Sequence record: PQ850618.1
Source of the DNA: Escherichia phage ManiWeber_Bas99
Length of the DNA stretch: 64,000 nt
Direction: 5' to 3' (one strand)
The notes under the pieces are model-generated. The model ran no database searches, was not told the origin of the DNA, and worked only from the letters and a program-made list of their open reading frames with translations. Positions 24,168 to 64,000 of this stretch are shown here, piece by piece. Position 1 is the first letter of the stretch, and each line of letters starts with the position of its first letter. The position numbers and the translations under genes are program-made.

Positions 24168-24192
24168 AAAGGCCCATATGGGCCTTTGTTTA
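24168..24192. terminator. Bidirectional rho-independent terminator
   Basis: AAAAAGGCCCATATGGGCCTTTGTTTATTTT: palindromic GC stem with A-run upstream and T-run downstream, between convergent genes. Confidence 0.6.
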
Positions 24193-24420: not shown

Positions 24421-24959
24421 CGCACATCCTGTGTCTTAACATTACCTGAAGCATCTCTTAAGGGCAGTGGATAGTAGGCCATTTGGTAGTCTGATACGCC
24501 TTCAACATGATAAAACACGATTACGTCTTTGCTGTTGATGAGCATGTTAACGACATCTGATTTATCTTCTGGAGTGAGTATGAGTGCGCCGCCTGTCCTG
24601 CTGTCTACTGCAACAGGGTATGTCTTGTCGACAAGGCCGCTGTCCAATGTATTATACCTGACAACGATTTCAGCGGCATCAACTTTTGCAATTGACATTC
24701 CGAACACAAACGAAACGACTTGGCGACCGCGATCATTCATTACGCACATCTTTTCCTTATCAAACCTTTCCTTTATCACATCATATTTGTTCCAGCAAAA
24801 TTCGAACGATTGGCCGTTGTTAAAATATCTCGTTAACACTTTGGCATTACTATTTGGTGGCGTAAACATACTTTCAGCCGCTGCACTTTTGGTGAAGAAC
24901 AAGACTGTCAGCATAGCCATGATGGTGATCAAAACAATCTTTAAAGTTTTCGATTTCAT
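24417..24959 (-). CDS. Secreted/periplasmic protein
   Basis: 180 aa; N-terminal signal peptide MKSKTLKIVLITIMAMLTVLFFTKSAAA. Confidence 0.4.
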   Translation of the reverse strand: MKSKTLKIVLITIMAMLTVLFFTKSAAAESMFTPPNSNAKVLTRYFNNGQSFEFCWNKYDVIKERFDKEKMCVMNDRGRQVVSFVFGMSIAKVDAAEIVVRYNTLDSGLVDKTYPVAVDSRTGGALILTPEDKSDVVNMLINSKDVIVFYHVEGVSDYQMAYYPLPLRDASGNVKTQDVR

Positions 24960-25039
24960 TATAATTCACCTTTTGATTACGAATATTAATAGTATAGGCC
25001 GAAGGTTTTGAAAGTAAATAAGGCGAAAGGTAAATAAAA

Positions 25040-25064
25040 GAAAAGCCGGAGATTTCCGGCTTTA
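25040..25064 (-). terminator. Rho-independent terminator (likely bidirectional)
   Basis: AAAAGCCGGAGATTTCCGGCTTTAT hairpin with flanking A/T runs, downstream of the ligase gene. Confidence 0.55.
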
Positions 25065-41973: not shown

Positions 41974-42006
41974 TGTTGACTTTGTATCACTCAATATTAT
42001 ACTGCA
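41974..42006 (+). promoter_or_regulatory. Sigma70-like promoter for the primase operon
   Basis: TTGACT-(16)-TATACT in the divergent intergenic region upstream of 42033. Confidence 0.45.
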
Positions 42007-44289: not shown

Positions 44290-44425
44290 TAGTTCACCAG
44301 TTATATTGCTTTAAATTGAGTTTTACTATATTAATATACAACGCCAGATTTCTGGCGTTTATTTACCGCACCCTGAAAGGATATATCCATGCAACAATAT
44401 AACAAAGCCGTATCAGGAGGATTAA

Positions 44426-48666: not shown

Positions 48667-48902
48667 TGGAAGATTATATCAACGCTATGTATATGGCATT
48701 CTATGTCGTGCAACTTCCGAATGGCGCGGTATTCTATGGCGAGTATACCTTTGACGTTCAATATGACGTTTCAGAGCGTACAGTGTTAACAAGGGAGTTG
48801 ATTGCGGACCTTAAGGACGACATCAAACGCGTCGCGCGGCAGCAGTTCAATTTGGATGACACGGTCATCGTTCGAATTACCGGAATAACAGAGGTGCAGT
48901 GA
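48666..48902 (+). CDS. Hypothetical early protein
   Basis: Internal ATG of track ORF 48552-48902. Confidence 0.3.
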   Translation: MEDYINAMYMAFYVVQLPNGAVFYGEYTFDVQYDVSERTVLTRELIADLKDDIKRVARQQFNLDDTVIVRITGITEVQ

Positions 48903-49231
48903 TGACCCGTGATCAGATACTCGCCGCGCATGAGCGTGAAAAGGTGAAAGAAATCTGGAAAAGACACAACGCCTTTGCCGAGTCCTATTACTTCTTAAAG
49001 AGGTGCATAAAAGAGAATGTGAGGATGGGCGATACCGTTTTGACATTTAACATTTTGTCTTATGGTAATAAGCTTAATGCAATATATGCTTGTCGACTAG
49101 CCAACATGAAGTTCGATAGAGGAGGTGACGGAGAGTTGACCATCTATCGATTCTCTCACCGGACGGGTGATACAAAGATAACAAGGACACGTGACCAGAT
49201 AGAGATTGACCTACTCCACTATGTAAAATGA
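48899..49231 (+). CDS. Hypothetical early protein
   Basis: 110 aa ORF. Confidence 0.3.
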   Translation: MMTRDQILAAHEREKVKEIWKRHNAFAESYYFLKRCIKENVRMGDTVLTFNILSYGNKLNAIYACRLANMKFDRGGDGELTIYRFSHRTGDTKITRTRDQIEIDLLHYVK

Positions 49232-49236
49232 ATATC

Positions 49237-49290
49237 AAAAAAGGTGAGCTAAATGCTTGCCTTTTCTTTTATCAATACTTATACTCTTTT
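49237..49290 (+). promoter_or_regulatory. Early promoter copy 1 (conserved upstream block, -35 TTGCCT, -10 TATACT)
   Basis: AAAAAGGTGAGCTAAATGCTTGCC then 17-bp spacer and TATACT, followed by TCATCAAG and an RBS; near-identical block at 50487-50540. Confidence 0.5.
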
Positions 49291-49316
49291 CATCAAGATG
49301 AAAAGCGAGGTGAATT

Positions 49317-49634
49317 ATGATTTACTTAGGAATGGACGAAGATGCGCACAAAGACCTTTCAAGGGTGCCAAACGTTAAGTTAGACACAGCTGTACACATC
49401 AAGCCTTGGCCAATCGCCCACCCTGACGTAGTTGTACCAGTCGCGCCTGGCACGCGTTACGTGGCCATTGATGACGACGGAGTGATTCACTGTTATTCGG
49501 AAAAACCAAAGTATATAAAGCAATATCACGGTTGGTTTTTGGACGAGCGTGCAATGGCGCGTTACTGCGGCGAAGTCGGACTGGAAGGCTGGAGCTTCGA
49601 GGCTAGTGAATCGTGTGTCGAGGTGCAATTATGA
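49317..49634 (+). CDS. Hypothetical early protein
   Basis: 105 aa; first gene after promoter copy 1. Confidence 0.35.
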   Translation: MIYLGMDEDAHKDLSRVPNVKLDTAVHIKPWPIAHPDVVVPVAPGTRYVAIDDDGVIHCYSEKPKYIKQYHGWFLDERAMARYCGEVGLEGWSFEASESCVEVQL

Positions 49635-49849
49635 ATGCCGCGCTGGGTAAGTTGTCTTTCAATAAACGCAACGAGTTGCGCATGGTGTCGGCTTTTCAGC
49701 GCACCCTTAATGCCATGTCAAGCGTTGCCATCACGATGCTTCGCGCTGATTGCCCTGCTGAAAAGCGTGAGACTTTATTCGAACGTCACCAACAATTACA
49801 AAAGGCGGCATTTAAGCTGCAGCAATATGCCATGGAGTATGCAAAATGA
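49631..49849 (+). CDS. Hypothetical early protein
   Basis: ATG after GAGGTG. Confidence 0.3.
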   Translation: MNAALGKLSFNKRNELRMVSAFQRTLNAMSSVAITMLRADCPAEKRETLFERHQQLQKAAFKLQQYAMEYAK

Positions 49850-50229
49850 GAATGAAGCGTTGCCCTTACTGCCACGATGTAATGCACCTTCCACACGAAG
49901 AGTTTGTGCAGCACATGACTAACTGTGATAAGAATCCTAATAGCGAAAGCCAACTTGAAGAAAGAATGTTCTTGGTGTCATTCAAAGCTTCTGCTTATGA
50001 AGTGCAACGTTCTTACGGCGCACCAAGTACGATTTACTGTCCAACAACATTGAGAAGCGACATCGACTCAATTCAGCTTGCGGCCTGGATTAACGTTAAG
50101 GAAGGAATCACGCCGCACTTTATTGCGCGCATCCAATCTCAGATTCTACAAATCAAGCGCGAATACAACCGTGACATCACTGAAGTGAAGGTGTTGTCTA
50201 TCACGCCTATGAATAAGGAGTTGCCGTGA
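49846..50229 (+). CDS. Hypothetical Cys/His-containing protein
   Basis: 127 aa; N-terminal CPYCHD...H...H...C. Confidence 0.3.
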   Translation: MRMKRCPYCHDVMHLPHEEFVQHMTNCDKNPNSESQLEERMFLVSFKASAYEVQRSYGAPSTIYCPTTLRSDIDSIQLAAWINVKEGITPHFIARIQSQILQIKREYNRDITEVKVLSITPMNKELP

Positions 50230-50486
50230 ACAAGGGTCCGATGACTAAGTTAGCCGTTGCCGCGCGGAAGCTTCGACAAGCCGTTAATGGGTCACGGCCC
50301 GTGGTGTTAACACTCGACGACGCAAAGGAACTGGTAGAGCTACTCGACGAGCACAACCGACGCAAGAATAGAGAGCGCACATTAAAGTACCGCGTCACGC
50401 CAGCCGGACGCGAGTGTGAAAAGAAAGCTTACTTGCGGCGGAAGTTAAGGTCGGTCGGTCTACACGAAGAAGCCGATCAGATTTAA
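50226..50486 (+). CDS. Hypothetical basic protein
   Basis: 86 aa, Arg/Lys-rich. Confidence 0.3.
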   Translation: MNKGPMTKLAVAARKLRQAVNGSRPVVLTLDDAKELVELLDEHNRRKNRERTLKYRVTPAGRECEKKAYLRRKLRSVGLHEEADQI

Positions 50487-50540
50487 TTCAAAAAGGTGAG
50501 CTAAGTGCTTGCCTTTTTATTTGTCTGTATTATACTTAAT
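50487..50540 (+). promoter_or_regulatory. Early promoter copy 2
   Basis: AAAAAGGTGAGCTAAGTGCTTGCC then 16-bp spacer and TATACT, followed by TCATCAAG and RBS AAAGGAGAGG. Confidence 0.5.
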
Positions 50541-50564
50541 TCATCAAGCAAAGGAGAGGTTATT

Positions 50565-50870
50565 ATGAGTACCGAAGCGATGAAGAGCAAGTTGTTGAAG
50601 GTTATGCAAGCCGCTGTCGAGTGCGGTGCTATTCAGGAGTTCAAAGAGACGCAAGAAGGCGGTGAGCCAGTATTCTTCTTTAAGAACAAGAAAGGTGCGG
50701 CAGCTGCTGTTATGCTCTTGAAGAACAGCGACATGACCTTTATTCTTTGCGCAGGCGGTTATGACCTTGTTGCCGATGACGCTTACATCACCTGCGCGAC
50801 GGGCCTTAATCCTATGTTAACGTTTGAGCGTCGCGGTATTCGTGTTGCGACATTTGGAGGCGTTTTATGA
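50565..50870 (+). CDS. Hypothetical early protein
   Basis: Internal ATG after AAAGGAGAGG; shares an LKVMQAAVECGAIQEF-like motif with the N-terminus of 51562-52062. Confidence 0.35.
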   Translation: MSTEAMKSKLLKVMQAAVECGAIQEFKETQEGGEPVFFFKNKKGAAAAVMLLKNSDMTFILCAGGYDLVADDAYITCATGLNPMLTFERRGIRVATFGGVL

Positions 50871-51052
50871 GTACCGAAGTCCACAACGCATCAGCACTGG
50901 TAAGCTTTTACCGCAACAAAGGCGTGTCTCTCGTTAAAACGTCGCAAGGCATGCTGTTCTTTGGCACGCGATTCCTTAAAGCTTCGGAGCGTGAAACGCT
51001 GTCCAAGTTTGATCAGAAAACATTACAAGCAGTTTGGAGACGACAACAATGA
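50867..51052 (+). CDS. Hypothetical early protein
   Basis: 61 aa ORF. Confidence 0.3.
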   Translation: MSTEVHNASALVSFYRNKGVSLVKTSQGMLFFGTRFLKASERETLSKFDQKTLQAVWRRQQ

Positions 51053-53818: not shown

Positions 53819-53833
53819 TTATGATTAATGTTA

Positions 53834-53860
53834 AGAGGGCCAATCGGCCCTTTTTATTTG
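53834..53860 (+). terminator. Rho-independent terminator ending the early operon
   Basis: AGGGCCAATCGGCCCTTTTTATTTG: 6-bp stem, 4-nt loop, T-run. Confidence 0.6.
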
Positions 53861-54349
53861 CCTGTGTAATGGGAGGCTTTTGTGGTTATTTACGATTCAA
53901 GGCTGTAATTTAAGAGAGCGAAAATATTATAATAATTTATCAAGATTATTGCATATTGTGGCAATCAACGTTTATACGTATTTATGACAGTTTAATCCAC
54001 TAAATAATACGGATAGAACAGTGAGGAAAATACAGCGGTGTATTTTAGTGTAAATATTGAATCAAAAATAAATAATTATGGTGCTATTATATACGCAGAT
54101 TGTTTGTAATTTATAGGATATTTTATCGTGGAGTATTGGCTAACGGTGCGTTAGCCGTGGGTCTTGGTGCTTGTGGTGTTGATGCTCAGAATTTTAATAA
54201 TGTTTTTAGTTTTAGTAATCGTAGTCAATGATGATACGTATAAGAAAATGAGAGTCACCCCTTCACAGGATATTGTACCGTGGCCCTGTGGCGCGCCGCG
54301 CCTGGGATTGCTGGTATACACTGGTGCTATTTTGCCGCGAAGGCAGTCA

Positions 54350-54685
54350 TTCATACGTATCATGACGTATCATTGGGCTATTGATTTATAAGGAAAAATA
54401 CGCTGATACGGATGATACGGATGCAAACATAATATATATAGAATTCCAGAAAATTAATTAACTCCATTTTGAATTAATTTAAATTAATTTTTTTCTACAT
54501 CCTCATACTTATACTAAACTTATATTTATACGTATTATCCGTAAGATATAAGTAAAAACAAAGACTTGCGGCAATACGGATGATACGTCATGATACGCTT
54601 CAACCAGCCAGCAGCGGCTAAGTCATTGATTTGCATAGCAAGCGGCGAAAGGGATGGATTTCTTTTATACGTATCAAACAGTACA
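54350..54685. repeat. Iteron module B: same repeat family and architecture as module A
   Basis: ACGTATCATGACGTATCAT about 54354-54373; reverse copies about 54404-54423 and 54574-54597; AT-rich core about 54424-54530; TTTTATACGTAT shared with module A. Confidence 0.7.
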
Positions 54686-54826
54686 CCACGCACCACGGTC
54701 CGTTATCCATTCAGCAATATGATTTGTGTACGTTTATAGCCATAATGAACATCAATCTGCACTTGAATATAATGTTCATCCATTGTATAATTCACACTAT
54801 TAATTTGCACTATGGGATTTTGCACT

Positions 54827-56744: not shown

Positions 56745-56818
56745 GTTAACGACCTATTCGTTAACTCATCCCGTCCCGATATGAGTACATTATAATATAG
56801 TGTAGAAAAAAGTAAAGC
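56745..56818 (-). promoter_or_regulatory. Promoter and structured leader of paralog A (minus strand)
   Basis: Minus-strand -35 TTTACT (plus about 56811-56816), -10 TATAAT (plus about 56789-56794); leader hairpin TTAACGA-ATAGG-TCGTTAA (plus about 56746-56764). Confidence 0.5.
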
Positions 56819-56858
56819 ACTTTTTCGATAAAAATGCGATAAATTATTTTATCTTTTT

Positions 56859-56890
56859 TCTTTACTTCTTCGTACACTCGCGTATACTTG
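56859..56890 (+). promoter_or_regulatory. Promoter of paralog B
   Basis: CTTTACTTCTTCGTACACT block: -35 TTTACT, 16-bp spacer, -10 TATACT; back to back with the paralog A promoter. Confidence 0.45.
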
Positions 56891-56944
56891 TTTATATCGA
56901 GACGGGCGATGGCCCTTTCTTCTACTAGCATCGGGAGCTTTATT

Positions 56945-57247: not shown

Positions 57248-57256
57248 CGAAAAAGT

Positions 57257-57331
57257 GCTTTACTTCTTCGTACACTAAGACTATAATGTTTTATATCGAG
57301 AGGGGATGAGGTAGCGAATAGGTCGCTGCCC
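57257..57331 (+). promoter_or_regulatory. Promoter and structured leader of paralog C
   Basis: -35 TTTACT (about 57259-57264), 17-bp spacer, -10 TATAAT (about 57282-57287); leader hairpin GTAGCGA-ATAGG-TCGCTGC (about 57311-57329); about 80% identical to the paralog A leader. Confidence 0.5.
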
Positions 57332-59855: not shown

Positions 59856-60145
59856 TAGAATCTTCTCCCATATCCATAAAAATTAAACACTAATTTTGCC
59901 ATGTCATCTTGTGAAACGACACTGTAGTGTTTAGGTAAATTGCTTTCTGACAATACCTTCTGGGCTTCTTCTGCTGTCTCAAACAAAGGGATGCACCAAT
60001 TAGCTGCGTCGCCAGATTCATTGCTATCAACTTGCTTTAAGAAAACCAAGCGGTTATCTTCAGGGTCAATACCACAGATGACATATTTAGGCAGCGCCTT
60101 TGCTTTTTGGGCCTTATCAATGTCTTCAAATTTCATTTCATTCAC
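59855..60145 (-). CDS. Hypothetical protein
   Basis: 96 aa ORF. Confidence 0.3.
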   Translation of the reverse strand: MNEMKFEDIDKAQKAKALPKYVICGIDPEDNRLVFLKQVDSNESGDAANWCIPLFETAEEAQKVLSESNLPKHYSVVSQDDMAKLVFNFYGYGRRF

Positions 60146-60219
60146 CTCACTTGTTAACGTATAATGAGTATAACTTAATAGTGCATAAAGTAAAGGCGCT
60201 TTTCAGCGCCTTGAGTGAA

Positions 60220-62553
60220 TTATTTCGCTGCTTTTAGCGCGGCTATCTCTGCCTCTAGTGACTCGACCTTCTTCATCAACTCCTGCACCACGTGCATCGT
60301 ATCCAAAAGCATAGGTGTTGTGTCAAGTTCTTTTTGTTCAACAATTTCTCCTGGATTGCTGCCAATATACTTACGCGTCTTAACATATAAAGGCTCAACG
60401 ACCTCTGCTTGCTGTGCAATAATGCCATGCCGAACTCGATTTTGTTCGTCATTGTCATAAATGAACTCTACAAATTCCAGTCCTTTAATATTAGAGTATG
60501 ATTTATCAACTCCAACAGGGGCGATGCCGTGTTTTACACGTGAGTCAGAAGTGCCATTTTTTGTATAACTGAAGTTACCGTAATCGGTTGAACCATATAT
60601 TTGACCATCAATGTCAAAAAAGTAACGGCAAAATTTTCCGTTATCTCCACCGATTACCACGCAAGCTATGCCGAATGCATCATTACCTGGTAAATACATA
60701 TGGTATCCAACCTTGGTTGGGTATCCATTAGGTTTGGTGGCACCGATAGAATAGCCGCGCACCAGCGTATCTGATCCACTCGCGATTGCCACCCTGTCCA
60801 TTCCGTTAGTGGTCAAGTTAGATACAGCGGCATCCGTTATTCCATTCCATGTGCCTAAAGGCGTATACATGCGGAATGGGTTGGTCTTCCCTGACTGTCG
60901 AAAGTCAACGGTGCCATCTTCATAGAATTTATAAGCGTGCTTGGAAGAACCCTCCGCCTCTACGACGGCAAAACTAGAAGAACCCCATGAAGAACTTGAG
61001 TACAGACGTGCAAACTGTGATGAACTAGGATTGCTATATTTTGACTCTACTTTGCCGCCGACAACCAATGTGCCTGCCACTGGTGCGCTTGAGTCTGCAT
61101 TTATTACGCTCCAAGACGTATTCGCAGCAACAAATCCACCCGATGCACGAATCACCCAAACGCCAACGAAGTTACGCGGAACAATTTCCGCTGCTGAACG
61201 GCCATAAACAGGACTGCAGCGAGAGGCGTCAAAGTTTGTTTGTATGAATCTTGACCCAGAGCCTGCTGCCGCAGGAGAGTCACCCGAAGTTATTGACTGA
61301 AAAGCACCATTAGTTGCCACTTGGCTTGGCAAAGAAGCCAATGTCACCATTGTGTGCGGCGCTGTGTAAGTTATATTTGGAGCGCCTGATTCAGACACAA
61401 CCCCGTTGGATGATGAATTCCCACCGTCACCCCTGCCGAATAAGGCCTGTATGGAACCAGTCTGCACCCCGTTGCGGTCTGGCACACGGAATGTCGTTGT
61501 TCCGTTACCCAGAGAATACTTGCCGCGTTTTGCTGGGTTGGCAAGCCAGTCAGCATCGGCAATAGGGGAAAGCATTTGCGCATAAGCCCACAGTTCAGGC
61601 CAGTCCGCACGGTTGAGTAACTGTCCGTCGGAGACAACTTCATACGGCTGAATGTATGCGCGACTGTCGCGCAGGTGAAAATCACCAACGCCATAGTTCA
61701 TAACACCGTTCATGCTTGGGCCAACGGTGCCTGTGTTAACTAAGTTTTCGACCCAACGCTTAGTTGCAGCATCGTAATCATTCACAGGGTCGCCAGCCAG
61801 CGGAGTTGACCCTTGTGGACGAATATTTAGCCAAGCTTGAGCATTGTCTGCTGAGCCAGTACCGCCCATGGAAGTCGGGACAATGTTTTGATCAGCGACT
61901 GCGCCAAATCCAAAAGCGGACTTCATACCCTGAATGGTAGTTTGCCCTGTGCCGCCGTTGGCGACTGGAATTATATCGCCACTCGTGAAAAACTTGCGCC
62001 ATTCTGTCCATCCACTTACAGAATCATATGTCCTGGTATAGTGAAATGGGAGGTTGTACGCTCTGTATATTTGCACGCAACCTTCTATCGAGTTAGCCTT
62101 TGTTTGCTGGACTTCCAACACGCCTGCACTATCAACAGGATAATTCAGGGCCGTGCTTGCCGCTGAGCTTATCGGTTGGGAATACTGTCCAAACCATGAA
62201 CCAGTCAAGGCATTAAGGTTGATGCCTGAAGGAATCTCTCCAAAATTTCGCACAGTATTGGTCAAGGATGCGGCAGTAGTTCGAATGGAAAGCATGTCAC
62301 CAGCCGCCCATGCACGCGCTGCAGTCCCTTCCTGTGCACGCTGAACGGTCAGGACATCACCAACGACAGCTGTTACTGTGACGATTTCGAATTGGAGGCC
62401 TGTTGCAGCGTCGACGATTGTCGCCACTACACGCTCGTTTGCGCCCAAGGTCGGAAAGCCTGACCCTGAGCGAATTGTGATTGTGGTGTCTGAAGTCGTC
62501 GTTGGTTGAGCCAGCGCGACCTCAAAGTTGTTTTTGAATATTAGCCTTGGCAT
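60220..62553 (-). CDS. Tail fibre/spike with C-terminal intramolecular chaperone (S74-like) domain
   Basis: 777 aa; fibre-like N-terminus; C-terminal ...GTSDSRVKHGIAPV... resembles the autoproteolytic Ser-Asp-x-Arg-x-Lys site of S74 chaperone domains, then a coiled-coil tail. Confidence 0.6.
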   Translation of the reverse strand: MPRLIFKNNFEVALAQPTTTSDTTITIRSGSGFPTLGANERVVATIVDAATGLQFEIVTVTAVVGDVLTVQRAQEGTAARAWAAGDMLSIRTTAASLTNTVRNFGEIPSGINLNALTGSWFGQYSQPISSAASTALNYPVDSAGVLEVQQTKANSIEGCVQIYRAYNLPFHYTRTYDSVSGWTEWRKFFTSGDIIPVANGGTGQTTIQGMKSAFGFGAVADQNIVPTSMGGTGSADNAQAWLNIRPQGSTPLAGDPVNDYDAATKRWVENLVNTGTVGPSMNGVMNYGVGDFHLRDSRAYIQPYEVVSDGQLLNRADWPELWAYAQMLSPIADADWLANPAKRGKYSLGNGTTTFRVPDRNGVQTGSIQALFGRGDGGNSSSNGVVSESGAPNITYTAPHTMVTLASLPSQVATNGAFQSITSGDSPAAAGSGSRFIQTNFDASRCSPVYGRSAAEIVPRNFVGVWVIRASGGFVAANTSWSVINADSSAPVAGTLVVGGKVESKYSNPSSSQFARLYSSSSWGSSSFAVVEAEGSSKHAYKFYEDGTVDFRQSGKTNPFRMYTPLGTWNGITDAAVSNLTTNGMDRVAIASGSDTLVRGYSIGATKPNGYPTKVGYHMYLPGNDAFGIACVVIGGDNGKFCRYFFDIDGQIYGSTDYGNFSYTKNGTSDSRVKHGIAPVGVDKSYSNIKGLEFVEFIYDNDEQNRVRHGIIAQQAEVVEPLYVKTRKYIGSNPGEIVEQKELDTTPMLLDTMHVVQELMKKVESLEAEIAALKAAK

Positions 62554-63789: not shown

Positions 63790-64000
63790 ATTACCTCCGG
63801 TTTTGAGTTAATATGATTATAATGCAGAATTTCAGAAAGGCAAACTTTTTGTGAATTTAAATTAAAAAAATGGCCAGAAATAATCTGGCCAAAAAGATCA
63901 CCCTTTATCCACTAATAAGCTGGAATCACAATTTTACTTGATATAGCTGTCTCAAGCAAACTATAATATGAATAAAATATTAACACATAATTGGAAAGTC

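What the first reader, a model, noticed from the sequence alone, without database searches (positions are those of the whole stretch)
49237..50540. Two near-identical early promoter blocks with a conserved upstream element
The 24-bp block AAAAAGGTGAGCTAA(A/G)TGCTTGCC occurs twice (about 49237 and 50487). Each is followed by a sigma70-like -35 TTGCCT, 16-17 bp spacer, -10 TATACT, a conserved TCATCAAG and an RBS. The conserved stretch upstream of -35 is longer than a UP element needs and may bind a phage or host regulator that times early expression.
Basis: seen in the sequence. Interest (0 to 1): 0.4.

Follow-up and report, generated by a model that had tools for sequence, protein, structure and literature searches.

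The report
Terminator hairpin fused to a promoter, twice
The repeated 24-base block is most likely a transcription stop signal (an RNA hairpin followed by a run of U) whose second half also serves as the -35 box of a host-type promoter, a stop-then-restart cassette already described in other phages, so it is ordinary rather than a new regulator site.

Summary
AAAAAGGTGAGCTAA(A/G)TGCTTGCC occurs at 49238-49261 and 50490-50513 on the + strand, with none expected by chance. Each copy is followed by TTGCCT, a 17- or 16-nt spacer, TATACT, TCATCAAG, a ribosome binding site and ATG. The interpretation needs correcting. The "conserved upstream element" folds as GGUGAGC-UAARU-GCUUGCC, extended by A/U pairs and followed by a U-run. 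It lies 8-11 nt after the stop codon of the upstream gene, which makes it a canonical intrinsic terminator. The GenBank records of the relatives WFC and WFH already annotate these exact 19 nt as putative terminators at both sites. The 3' arm of the hairpin is the -35, so each block is a composite terminator/promoter cassette.

The window is a Wifcevirus coliphage. All 16 relatives examined carry both cassettes. Identity is 0.96 in the cassettes against 0.71-0.86 in the flanking genes. Changes fall in the loop, spacer, discriminator and leader. At least three further terminator-to-promoter composites with different hairpins occur in the window.

The closest described analogue is the PeSL cassette of T4-type phages. 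Nothing here has been tested experimentally. The invariance of TCATCAAG and of the two G-U pairs remains unexplained. I rate it a new member of a known kind, of low interest.

The parts
49229..49231 (+). TGA stop codon of the upstream gene (48899-49231), 11 nt before the G+C core of hairpin A
49237..49270 (+). Terminator A. The A-tract is 49237-49242, the 5' arm GGTGAGC is 49243-49249, the loop TAAAT is 49250-49254, the 3' arm GCTTGCC is 49255-49261 and the U-tract TTTTCTTTT is 49262-49270.
   Evidence: Searches find 11 pairs. One search gives dG -13.8 kcal/mol with z -3.9. One search gives -8.7 kcal/mol for the core. The homologous 19 nt are annotated as a terminator in WFC and WFH.
49257..49285 (+). 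Putative sigma70-type promoter A, TTGCCT-17-TATACT. The -35 lies inside the 3' arm of the hairpin and the first T of the U-tract.
   Evidence: rank 21 of 3512. Invariant in 17 genomes.
49290..49297 (+). Invariant TCATCAAG block. The predicted transcription start is A at 49292, 7 nt after the -10.
   Evidence: The start position is inferred, not mapped.
49307..49319 (+). Shine-Dalgarno GAGGTGA and ATG of the first gene of the A-B module (49317-49634)
49317..50486 (+). Module of four small genes of unknown function bracketed by the two cassettes (49317-49634, 49635-49849, 49846-50229, 50226-50486)
   Evidence: Only the PHROG family phrog_1972, of unknown function, matched.
50490..50522 (+). Terminator B. 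The A-tract is 50490-50494, the 5' arm is 50495-50501, the loop TAAGT is 50502-50506, the 3' arm is 50507-50513 and the U-tract TTTTTATTT is 50514-50522. The TAA stop of the upstream gene at 50484-50486 lies 8 nt before the core.
   Evidence: Searches find 12 pairs. One search gives dG -17.7 kcal/mol with z -4.7. Annotated as a terminator in WFC and WFH.
50509..50536 (+). Putative sigma70-type promoter B, TTGCCT-16-TATACT
   Evidence: (rank 40 of 3512)
50541..50567 (+). TCATCAAG (predicted start A at 50543), leader, SD AAGGAG at 50551-50556 and ATG at 50565 of the next gene (50565-50870)
53833..53868 (+). Terminator that closes the + strand small-ORF block. It has a different hairpin (AAGAGGGCC-AATC-GGCCCTTTT) but a tail, TTTTTATTTGCCTGT, identical to that of cassette B in relatives. 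No -10 follows.
60134..60222 (-). Composite C, a diverged paralogue on the - strand after the tail-fibre gene. The TAA stop is 60222-60220 and the hairpin AAGGCGCT-GAAA-AGCGCCTT is 60212-60193. The -35 TTTACT at 60194-60189 overlaps the 3' arm. After a 16-nt spacer comes TATACT at 60172-60167. The leader TAACAAGTGAGGTGAAT is identical to the cassette A leader in relatives, and the ATG is at 60136.
24958..25063 (-). Composite D. The hairpin AAAGCCGGA-AATC-TCCGGCTTT is followed by the tail TTTTCTTTTAT (the same as in A). TTTACT-16-TATACT lies 23 nt downstream, followed by SD AAAGGTGAATTAT.
63800..63891 (-). Composite E. The hairpin TGGCCAGA-TTATT-TCTGGCCA with T7 is followed 27 nt later by aaaaagtTTGCCT-16-TATAAT.

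Best explanation
Each block is a composite terminator/promoter cassette in the small-ORF region of a Wifcevirus coliphage. Transcripts arriving from the upstream genes form the hairpin GGUGAGC-UAARU-GCUUGCC, lengthened by A-U pairs, and are released in the following U-run. This is Rho-independent termination, 8-11 nt after the upstream stop codon. On the DNA, the 3' arm of that same hairpin plus the first T of the U-run is the -35 hexamer TTGCCT. The T-run forms most of the spacer, and TATACT lies 16-17 bp further on as the -10. Host sigma70 RNA polymerase would then restart at the A of TCATCAAG (49292 and 50543), giving a 22-25 nt leader with a strong ribosome binding site. The region is thus cut into separately driven units: the genes before A, a four-gene module between A and B, and the genes from B to the terminator at 53833. 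What is shown: the repeat, the fold and its strand asymmetry, the consensus matches, the position relative to genes, conservation above that of the coding flanks, and recurrence of the same layout with other hairpins. What is inferred: that termination and initiation actually occur, the start sites, and the early timing. The near-total invariance of the stem is best explained by double duty. The 3' arm is fixed by the -35, and the 5' arm must pair with it.
For: (1) Both blocks are the two strongest terminator-like sites in 45-56 kb, with 11 and 12 pairs followed by a T-run (independent scan). (2) The RNA fold gives -13.8 and -17.7 kcal/mol with z of -3.9 and -4.7, and a 19-nt core of -8.7 kcal/mol. 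On the opposite strand the two G-U pairs become C-A mismatches and an internal loop opens. (3) The WFC and WFH GenBank records annotate exactly GGTGAGCTAAATGCTTGCC as 'putative transcriptional terminator, -10.10' at both homologous sites. (4) The hairpins begin 11 and 8 nt after stop codons on the coding strand, and all neighbouring genes are on the + strand. (5) In 17 genomes (34 copies) the cassettes have mean pairwise identity 0.957 and 0.956, against 0.71-0.86 for the flanking coding DNA. Substitutions fall in the loop (TAAAT, TAAGT, TATAT), the spacer beyond the T-run, the discriminator and the leader. The stem (one exception, SP13 copy B), TTGCCT, TATACT and TCATCAAG do not vary. [quoted passage not shown] (7) The promoters are TTGCCT-17-TATACT and TTGCCT-16-TATACT, ranked 21st and 40th of 3512 candidates. 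Other intergenic promoter candidates of this phage also use TTGCCT or TTTACT with TATAAT or TATACT. (8) The window holds 6 terminator-to-promoter composites against 0-2 (mean 0.25) in 20 shuffles. Composite C has a different hairpin in the same register with its -35 and a leader identical to that of A, and its loop, not its stem, varies between relatives. This is structure kept while sequence is replaced.
Against: No 5' or 3' end mapping exists for any Wifcevirus, so neither termination nor initiation is demonstrated. No compensatory change could be observed in the A/B stem. The cassette is confined to one narrow genus, and the next relatives are only 44-47% identical in the primase protein. 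The stem core is modest, with 4 G-C, 2 G-U and 1 A-U pair, so termination may be only partial. Mutations that would strengthen the stem (U-G to C-G, G-U to A-U) were never seen in 34 copies. The double-duty argument covers the 3' arm better than the 5' arm. The invariance of TCATCAAG is not predicted by a plain sigma70 promoter.
Confidence: 0.72

Rival explanations
1. The block upstream of the -35 is a DNA, or nascent RNA, recognition site for a phage or host regulator such as an activator, repressor or antiterminator. The regulator would time expression of the two downstream units, and the hairpin potential would be secondary.
For: The 29-nt hairpin block is identical between the paralogues A and B in nearly all genomes, although the spacer and leader have diverged. 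The two G-U pairs are never 'improved'. This is more sequence constraint than a terminator alone needs. TCATCAAG at the start site is equally invariant, and an operator could explain that.
Against: As DNA the repeat is an imperfect palindrome whose two mismatches are both G-U-compatible only on the coding strand. Taking 2 of the 12 possible non-Watson-Crick base combinations as G-U on a given strand, that is about 1 chance in 36 for two mismatches. The U-run, the distance from the stop codon and the independent terminator annotation are all explained without a factor. Only two sites exist in the 64 kb window. Analogous composites use unrelated hairpins. The overlap with the -35 already explains the fixed 3' arm.
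Confidence: 0.1
2. The cassettes matter chiefly as PeSL-like recombination linkers. Short conserved regulatory sequences would let genes be inserted, deleted or swapped between co-infecting phages, for example through mini-circles, with the regulatory function as the reason they are tolerated.
For: All four cassette edges are indel or replacement junctions among 17 genomes. In WFC and SP13 an extra ORF is flanked by a 21-nt direct repeat, AAATGAATATCAAAAAGGTGA, made of the stop codon plus the 5' arm. EC150 and CWP003 have an extra ORF right after the ATG of cassette A. RCIP0319 has 1.45 kb inserted between the stop codon and hairpin B. At least four different genes follow B. Composite C adjoins a tail-fibre swap breakpoint and is partly shared with T5-like phages. 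PeSLs are documented to behave this way (PMC2839356, PMC4122927).
Against: About half of the other roughly 22 gene junctions in 45-53.8 kb also carry indels, usually at SD/start/stop microhomologies. The cassettes are therefore not demonstrably preferred: 4 of 4 against about 1 in 2. No genome has lost the A-B module, although it is flanked by 29-30 nt of identity. There are only two near-identical copies per genome, whereas the PeSL papers describe series of such motifs in the hyperplastic regions of T4-type phages (PMC2839356).
Confidence: 0.1
3. The hairpin is mainly an mRNA 3'-end stabiliser or processing site within a long read-through transcript, there is no functional promoter behind it, and the -35/-10 matches are fortuitous.
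For: The promoter match is only 9 of 12, and the tool's scan finds as many such sites as in shuffled sequence (18 against 19.7). The stem core is modest.
Against: TATACT and its 16-17 nt distance from TTGCCT are invariant in 34 of 34 copies, while the bases between and after them vary. The -10 island is one of only three blocks kept identical between the diverged paralogues A and B. About 4.5 kb of + strand genes lie downstream with no other good promoter between 49.3 and 53.8 kb. Composites C, D and E repeat the terminator-then-promoter layout.
Confidence: 0.05
4. A small ORF or an N-terminal extension is translated through the cassette. The 5' arm AAGGTGA would act as Shine-Dalgarno for the ATG or GTG in the loop, and the conservation would reflect coding.
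For: AAGGTGA-GCTAA-ATG is a good ribosome binding site. In cassette B the loop start codon is in frame with the downstream gene, without a stop, in 15 of 17 genomes. In WFC and SP13 the truncated arm does serve as the SD of an inserted ORF.
Against: In WFC and WFH the B frame is shifted and stops after 18 codons. In cassette A the frame is never that of the gene, and the ORF ends at five different places (18, 22, 26, 36, 41 or 72 aa). The 'peptide' (MLAFLF...) is simply the translation of the hairpin arm and T-run. At least four unrelated genes follow B. The predicted start site lies downstream of this ATG, and the hairpin would sequester both the SD and the ATG.
Confidence: 0.03

Closest known systems
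PeSL (promoter-early stem-loop) cassettes of T4-type phages RB49/phi1, PST/T4 and nt-1/KVP40 (Arbiol et al. 2010, PMC2839356; Comeau et al. 2014, PMC4122927)
   Same: Both are intergenic composites with the order upstream stop codon, A/T-rich stretch, stem-loop acting as terminator or attenuator, sigma70-like -35/-10, Shine-Dalgarno, ATG. One of the five described subclasses has the stem-loop overlapping the -35, as here. G-T pairs in the stems are noted in the PeSL figures. The nt-1 stem consensus A3-4G3-loop-C3T3-4 has the same form as AAAAAGG...CCTTTTT. Both lie among small ORFs of unknown function whose content differs between close relatives, with indel junctions at the cassette edges.
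   Different: The phage lineage is different (Wifcevirus, related to PB1-like phages, not T4-like). There are only two near-identical copies plus about three looser composites per genome, whereas the PeSL papers describe series of such motifs in the hyperplastic regions. The promoter is weaker than the near-consensus RB49 PeSL promoters. No preferential association with indels could be shown. Mini-circles, promoter activity and terminator activity are untested here.
Canonical Rho-independent (intrinsic) terminators of E. coli and its phages
   Same: There is a G+C-containing stem of 7 pairs (11-12 with the A-U extension), a 5-nt loop and 8 U in the next 9-10 nt. The element lies just after a stop codon and is strand-specific. 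The terminator prediction annotated in the WFC GenBank record (dG -10.10) finds it.
   Different: The 3' arm and U-tract are simultaneously promoter elements. The stem contains two conserved G-U pairs, so it may be a partial terminator.
T4 MotA-dependent middle promoters and the PmSL variant in nt-1 (TGCTT 'Mot box' plus a -10)
   Different: A regular -35 at the correct distance is present. Homologues of MotA and AsiA were not looked for.

Membership tests
Intrinsic (Rho-independent) terminator | Stable G+C-containing RNA stem-loop on the transcribed strand | tested here: met
   The 7-bp core folds at -8.7 kcal/mol. The extended hairpins give -13.8 and -17.7 kcal/mol with z of -3.9 and -4.7. 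The fold is weaker, with an internal loop, on the opposite strand.
Intrinsic (Rho-independent) terminator | U-rich tract immediately 3' of the stem | tested here: met
   The tracts are UUUUCUUUU (A) and UUUUUAUUU (B). These are the top two hits of the terminator scan.
Intrinsic (Rho-independent) terminator | Located downstream of a gene end, in the direction of transcription | tested here: met
   The hairpin core starts 11 nt (A) and 8 nt (B) after the stop codons of + strand genes.
Intrinsic (Rho-independent) terminator | Structure maintained in evolution (covariation, or loop-only change) | tested here: inconclusive
   Three loop variants and one stem-breaking singleton were seen in 34 copies, with no compensatory pair. 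The relatives are too close.
Intrinsic (Rho-independent) terminator | Transcript 3' ends or termination activity | not testable with these tools
   No transcript data were found in the literature.
Sigma70-dependent promoter | -35 and -10 hexamers with 16-18 nt spacing, A-11 and T-7 present | tested here: met
   The promoters are TTGCCT-17-TATACT and TTGCCT-16-TATACT, matching 9 of 12, and rank 21 and 40 of 3512.
Sigma70-dependent promoter | Promoter elements conserved while the spacer and discriminator drift | tested here: met
   The hexamers are invariant in 34 copies. Variable columns lie in the spacer, discriminator and leader.
Sigma70-dependent promoter | Mapped transcription start or promoter activity | not testable with these tools
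   The starts at 49292 and 50543 are predicted only from geometry (7 nt after the -10, CAT context).
UP element | A/T-rich alpha-CTD site between about -40 and -60 | tested here: inconclusive
   The A-tract lies at -55 to -50 (A) and -53 to -49 (B) relative to the predicted start. It also pairs with the U-tract, so its role cannot be separated. Other promoter candidates of the phage carry AAAAAGT(GC) directly before the -35.
PeSL composite promoter/terminator cassette | Intergenic composite: stop codon, A/T-rich stretch, stem-loop, sigma70-like -35/-10, SD, ATG, with the stem-loop in one of five positions including over the -35 | tested here: met
   The definition is taken from PMC2839356.
PeSL composite promoter/terminator cassette | Repeated motif, many copies, concentrated in hyperplastic regions of small ORFs | tested here: inconclusive
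   There are two near-identical copies in the small-ORF block and three looser composites elsewhere, making 6 composites against 0.25 expected. This appears to be fewer than the series of motifs the PeSL papers describe for T4-type phages.
PeSL composite promoter/terminator cassette | Sited at insertion, deletion or replacement junctions between close relatives | tested here: inconclusive
   All four cassette edges are junctions, one with a 21-nt flanking direct repeat. About half of the other gene junctions are junctions too.
PeSL composite promoter/terminator cassette | Recombination between copies yields mini-circles | not testable with these tools
   This needs inverse PCR on infected cells. 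No genome lacks the A-B module.
PeSL composite promoter/terminator cassette | Described only in T4-type myoviruses | tested here: not met
   The window is a Wifcevirus. Its nearest other genera are Myosmarvirus and Pbunavirus.
T4 MotA-type middle promoter | TGCTT box centred near -30, replacing the -35 | tested here: not met
   TGCTT (49254-49258) ends 21 nt before the -10, and a normal -35 is present at 17 nt. The reference spacing comes from established knowledge.
T4 MotA-type middle promoter | Phage encodes MotA and AsiA homologues | not tested
   Only the 10 ORFs around the cassettes were scanned, against PHROGs, and gave no functional hits.
Known structured RNA family (Rfam) | Match to a curated covariance model | tested here: not met
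   No match at E <= 1 in 48800-51000 on either strand.

The most novel reading that the evidence does not exclude
The hairpin, with its never-improved G-U pairs, SD-like 5' arm and loop AUG, and the invariant TCATCAAG at the start site could be recognition sites for a phage-encoded factor. Such a factor would switch the cassettes between 'terminate and restart' and read-through or shut-off, giving temporal control of two gene modules. The same conserved cassettes might also act outside the T4 group as PeSL-type linkers for gene exchange, including the tail-fibre junction shared with T5-like phages.
Probability: 0.1. Interest if true: 0.5.

Novelty: new member of a known kind. Interest (0 to 1): 0.18.

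Why it matters
The finding gives a concrete transcription map for the uncharacterised small-ORF region of Wifcevirus phages, several of which are candidates for biocontrol or detection of E. coli O157. It predicts three units, with start sites at 49292 and 50543 and 3' ends near 49270 and 50522. It also shows that composite terminator/promoter cassettes of the PeSL type occur outside T4-like phages. For engineering, the cassettes are compact natural insulator-plus-promoter parts of about 85 nt, and their edges are places where this genus naturally tolerates gene insertion. It does not reveal a new mechanism.

Tried and rejected
(1) I scanned IMG/VR with the promoter half alone (TTATACTNNNNTCATCAAG) to find cassettes with other hairpins. 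The pattern was too unspecific: 120 or more loci matched, nearly all of them single chance hits, and only ECML-117 itself had two.

(2) I looked for distant relatives to test covariation. A protein-anchored IMG/VR scan gave only 4 loci, all Wifcevirus. Sensitive blastn of the cassette against 50,697 phage records found it only in Wifcevirus. tblastn with the primase showed the next relatives at 44-47% identity. Serratia phage WR01 has a different gene order, and the 18 kb examined held no comparable repeated cassette. My composite scan did not actually run on WR01 because of a file-name slip; only the repeat search covers it.

(3) Rfam gave no family.

(4) PHROGs on 10 flanking ORFs gave only families of unknown function, so the 'early' label cannot be supported from gene content. 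One search failed because of a frame error on my part and was repeated.

(5) Literature searches for Wifcevirus promoters or transcriptomes found nothing.

(6) A shared upstream motif, AAAAAGTGCTTKMCT, linking the cassettes to the 56.8-57.3 kb promoters has only 2 matches, which is not above chance. I dropped it as evidence.

(7) I rejected the small-ORF reading because the frame is inconsistent.

(8) I rejected the MotA-box reading on spacing.

(9) I considered gene conversion between A and B as the cause of their identity. The singleton variants are each confined to one paralogue, and the A-type and B-type spacers are stably different in all genomes. Purifying selection therefore fits better.
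Full report
**1. Observation**

The 24-nt block AAAAAGGTGAGCTAA(A/G)TGCTTGCC is present at 49238-49261 and 50490-50513 on the + strand. No further copy appears at up to 3 mismatches, and none of 100 shuffles produced a match.

- Copy A: TTGCCT 49257-49262, 17-nt spacer, TATACT 49280-49285, TCATCAAG 49290-49297, GAGGTGA 49307-49313, ATG 49317.
- Copy B: TTGCCT 50509-50514, 16-nt spacer, TATACT 50531-50536, TCATCAAG 50541-50548, AAGGAG 50551-50556, ATG 50565.

Searching the two halves separately gives the same two sites. In fact the whole intergenic unit of about 85 nt is a diverged repeat with three identical islands.

**2. What the 'upstream element' is**

The block is an imperfect inverted repeat. 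GGTGAGC pairs with GCTTGCC around a 5-nt loop, flanked by A5-6 on the left and a T-run on the right.

The consensus scan ranks the two blocks first and second among the terminator-like sites of 45-56 kb, with 12 and 11 pairs. My own scan of the whole window agrees.

As RNA the + strand folds at -13.8 kcal/mol (A) and -17.7 kcal/mol (B), with z-scores of -3.9 and -4.7. The 19-nt core alone gives -8.7 kcal/mol. The two non-Watson-Crick positions are G-U on the + strand. On the - strand they become C-A mismatches, which open an internal loop.

All genes from about 44 to 53.8 kb are on the + strand. The hairpin cores begin 11 and 8 nt after the stop codons at 49229-49231 and 50484-50486. The single A/G difference between the two copies lies in the loop.

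This is the anatomy of a Rho-independent terminator. The last five bases of its 3' arm plus the first T of the U-tract spell the -35, TTGCCT.

**3. Identity of the genome and prior annotation**

The region is 84-92% identical to Wifcevirus coliphages such as WFC, WFH, ECML-117, FEC19 and vB_Eco4M-7. The GenBank records of WFC and WFH annotate GGTGAGCTAAATGCTTGCC at both homologous positions as 'putative transcriptional terminator, -10.10'. The hairpin half of the finding is therefore already in the public record as a prediction. I found no annotation or paper that describes the overlapping promoter, and no transcript mapping for the genus.

**4. Comparative evidence**

Sixteen relatives each carry exactly the two cassettes, at the same two positions.

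| Region | Mean pairwise identity |
|---|---|
| Cassette A | 0.957 |
| Cassette B | 0.956 |
| Flanking coding DNA | 0.71-0.86 |

The variable columns are the loop (TAAAT, TAAGT, TATAT), the spacer beyond the T-run, the discriminator and the leader. The stem does not vary except for one singleton in SP13 copy B. TTGCCT, TATACT and TCATCAAG do not vary at all.

A and B differ consistently from each other in the spacer, discriminator and leader in every genome. They are therefore old paralogues held identical only at the three functional islands.

No compensatory change could be seen, because the cassette is confined to this narrow genus. The nearest other genera are only 44-47% identical in the primase protein. 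Rfam has no match.

**5. The promoter half**

TTGCCT-17-TATACT and TTGCCT-16-TATACT rank 21st and 40th of 3512 PWM candidates on both strands of the window. The -10 has the critical A-11 and T-7. A CAT motif places a purine start 7 nt after the -10, at 49292 and 50543, giving leaders of 25 and 22 nt with strong ribosome binding sites.

Other good intergenic candidates in this phage use the same hexamer variants, for example TTGCCT-17-TATAAT at 2560, TTGCCT-16-TATAAT at 63843(-) and TTGACT-16-TATACT at 41976. No other good promoter lies between 49.3 and 53.8 kb to drive the 4.5 kb of genes downstream of the terminators. The start sites are inferred, not shown.

**6. The layout recurs with other hairpins**

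A generic scan for a hairpin plus T-run followed within 30 nt by a good promoter finds 6 composites in the window. Twenty shuffles gave 0-2, with a mean of 0.25.

- **Composite C** (60222-60134, - strand, after the tail-fibre gene) has a different, fully Watson-Crick hairpin, AAGGCGCT-GAAA-AGCGCCTT. Its 3' arm runs into the -35 TTTACT, followed by 16 nt and TATACT. Its leader TAACAAGTGAGGTGAAT is identical to the leader of cassette A in relatives. WFC annotates a terminator there too. Across relatives the stem of C is constant, while its loop is inverted to TTTC in Bas100.
- **Composite D** (25063-24958, - strand) shares the tail TTTTCTTTTAT with A.
- **The terminator at 53833** shares TTTTTATTTGCCTGT with B.

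A structure kept in the same register while its sequence is replaced argues for a hairpin function rather than a sequence-specific protein site.

**7. Relation to gene shuffling**

The region is hyperplastic, and all four cassette edges are indel or replacement junctions among 17 genomes:
- In WFC and SP13 an extra ORF is bracketed by a 21-nt direct repeat, AAATGAATATCAAAAAGGTGA (the stop codon plus the 5' arm). The truncated arm serves as the Shine-Dalgarno sequence of the inserted ORF.
- EC150 and CWP003 have an extra ORF right after the ATG of cassette A.
- RCIP0319 has 1.45 kb inserted between the stop codon and hairpin B.
- At least four different genes follow B.

This matches what was described for PeSLs. 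However, about half of the other gene junctions in the block also carry indels at SD/start/stop microhomologies. No genome has lost the A-B module. A specific recombination role is therefore possible but not demonstrated.

**8. Comparison with known systems**

The closest described system is the PeSL of T4-type phages. It is a composite of a sigma70-like early promoter and a stem-loop terminator between small ORFs, and one subclass has the stem-loop over the -35. The nt-1 stems have the form A3-4G3-loop-C3T3-4 (PMC2839356, PMC4122927).

The cassette here works like a PeSL. It differs in phage lineage and apparently in copy number. Its activity and mini-circle formation have not been tested. 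The MotA-box reading fails on spacing. The small-ORF reading fails on frame inconsistency.

**9. What remains unexplained**

TCATCAAG is as invariant as the -10, although a sigma70 promoter does not require that. The two G-U pairs and the SD-like 5' arm are never altered, even though stronger stems are one transition away. The overlap with the -35 explains the fixed 3' arm and, through pairing, much of the 5' arm, but not all of it. This leaves a small space, which I put at about 0.1, for a sequence-specific factor.

**10. Verdict**

The element is a composite intrinsic terminator and sigma70-type promoter present twice. The terminator half is already annotated in relatives, and the architecture is already known from PeSLs. 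I rate it a new member of a known kind, with interest about 0.18.

Noticed in passing
window 53820-54700: This is about 850 nt of A/T-rich non-coding DNA after the last small ORF. It contains many short GATGATACG / ATACGTAT-type repeats, for example near 54228, 54355, 54400-54420, 54575-54598 and 54668. Homology to all relatives is lost between about 53880 and 54404 and resumes sharply at 54404-54407. WFC is reported to have a terminal repeat of about 3.7 kb, so this may be the repeat boundary, an origin or a packaging region.
   Followed up: partly
window 56775-56830 (-), 56864-56915 (+), 57250-57305 (+): A second, unrelated family of three repeated promoter blocks has the form (AAAAAGTGC)TTTACT-TCTTCGTACACT-N5-TATAMT-GTTTTATATCGAGA(C/G)GGG. 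Two of the copies form a divergent pair. They are probably strong host-type early promoters near the terminal-repeat region.
   Followed up: partly
window 60195-60254 (- strand); L143: The last ~35 nt of the tail-fibre gene plus the 5' arm and loop of terminator C are 93% identical to the end of ltfB in the T5-like phages DT57C and DT571/2. Many Wifcevirus relatives lose homology upstream of 60254. This looks like a tail-fibre (host-range) module swap with a breakpoint just inside the gene's 3' end.
   Followed up: partly
window 58798-58765 (- strand): A promoter-like site, TTGAAT-17-TATTAT, has its spacer filled by a G+C hairpin, GCCGCGC-TAT-GCGGC. [quoted passage not shown]
   Followed up: no
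window 24168-24187, 25042-25063, 44340-44359: These are perfectly palindromic hairpins with A-runs on one side and T-runs on the other. They score as terminators on both strands and sit at points where gene orientation changes or between transcription units, so they are likely bidirectional terminators.
   Followed up: no
window 50505-50870; L011 4421-4513: The mechanical ORF list starts the gene after cassette B at a GTG in the hairpin loop (50505). The real start is almost certainly the ATG at 50565, which follows AAGGAG. The Bas98 record annotates a 30-aa CDS (Bas98_0076) lying across cassette A, which is probably spurious.
   Followed up: yes
L066, L072, L086, L096, L129, L135 (IMG/VR contigs of about 36-45 kb); L045, L103: The unspecific IMG/VR scan turned up an unrelated phage group with a terminator, AAAAATCGCA-TTTT-TGCGATTTTT, directly followed by TTGACT-17-TATACT-TTATTCATCAAG. 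A second group shares TTCATCAAGCAAAGGGGAGG with cassette B but has a different hairpin abutting the -10. These may be chance matches forced by the search pattern, or TTCATCAAG may be a recurrent start-site context.
   Followed up: no
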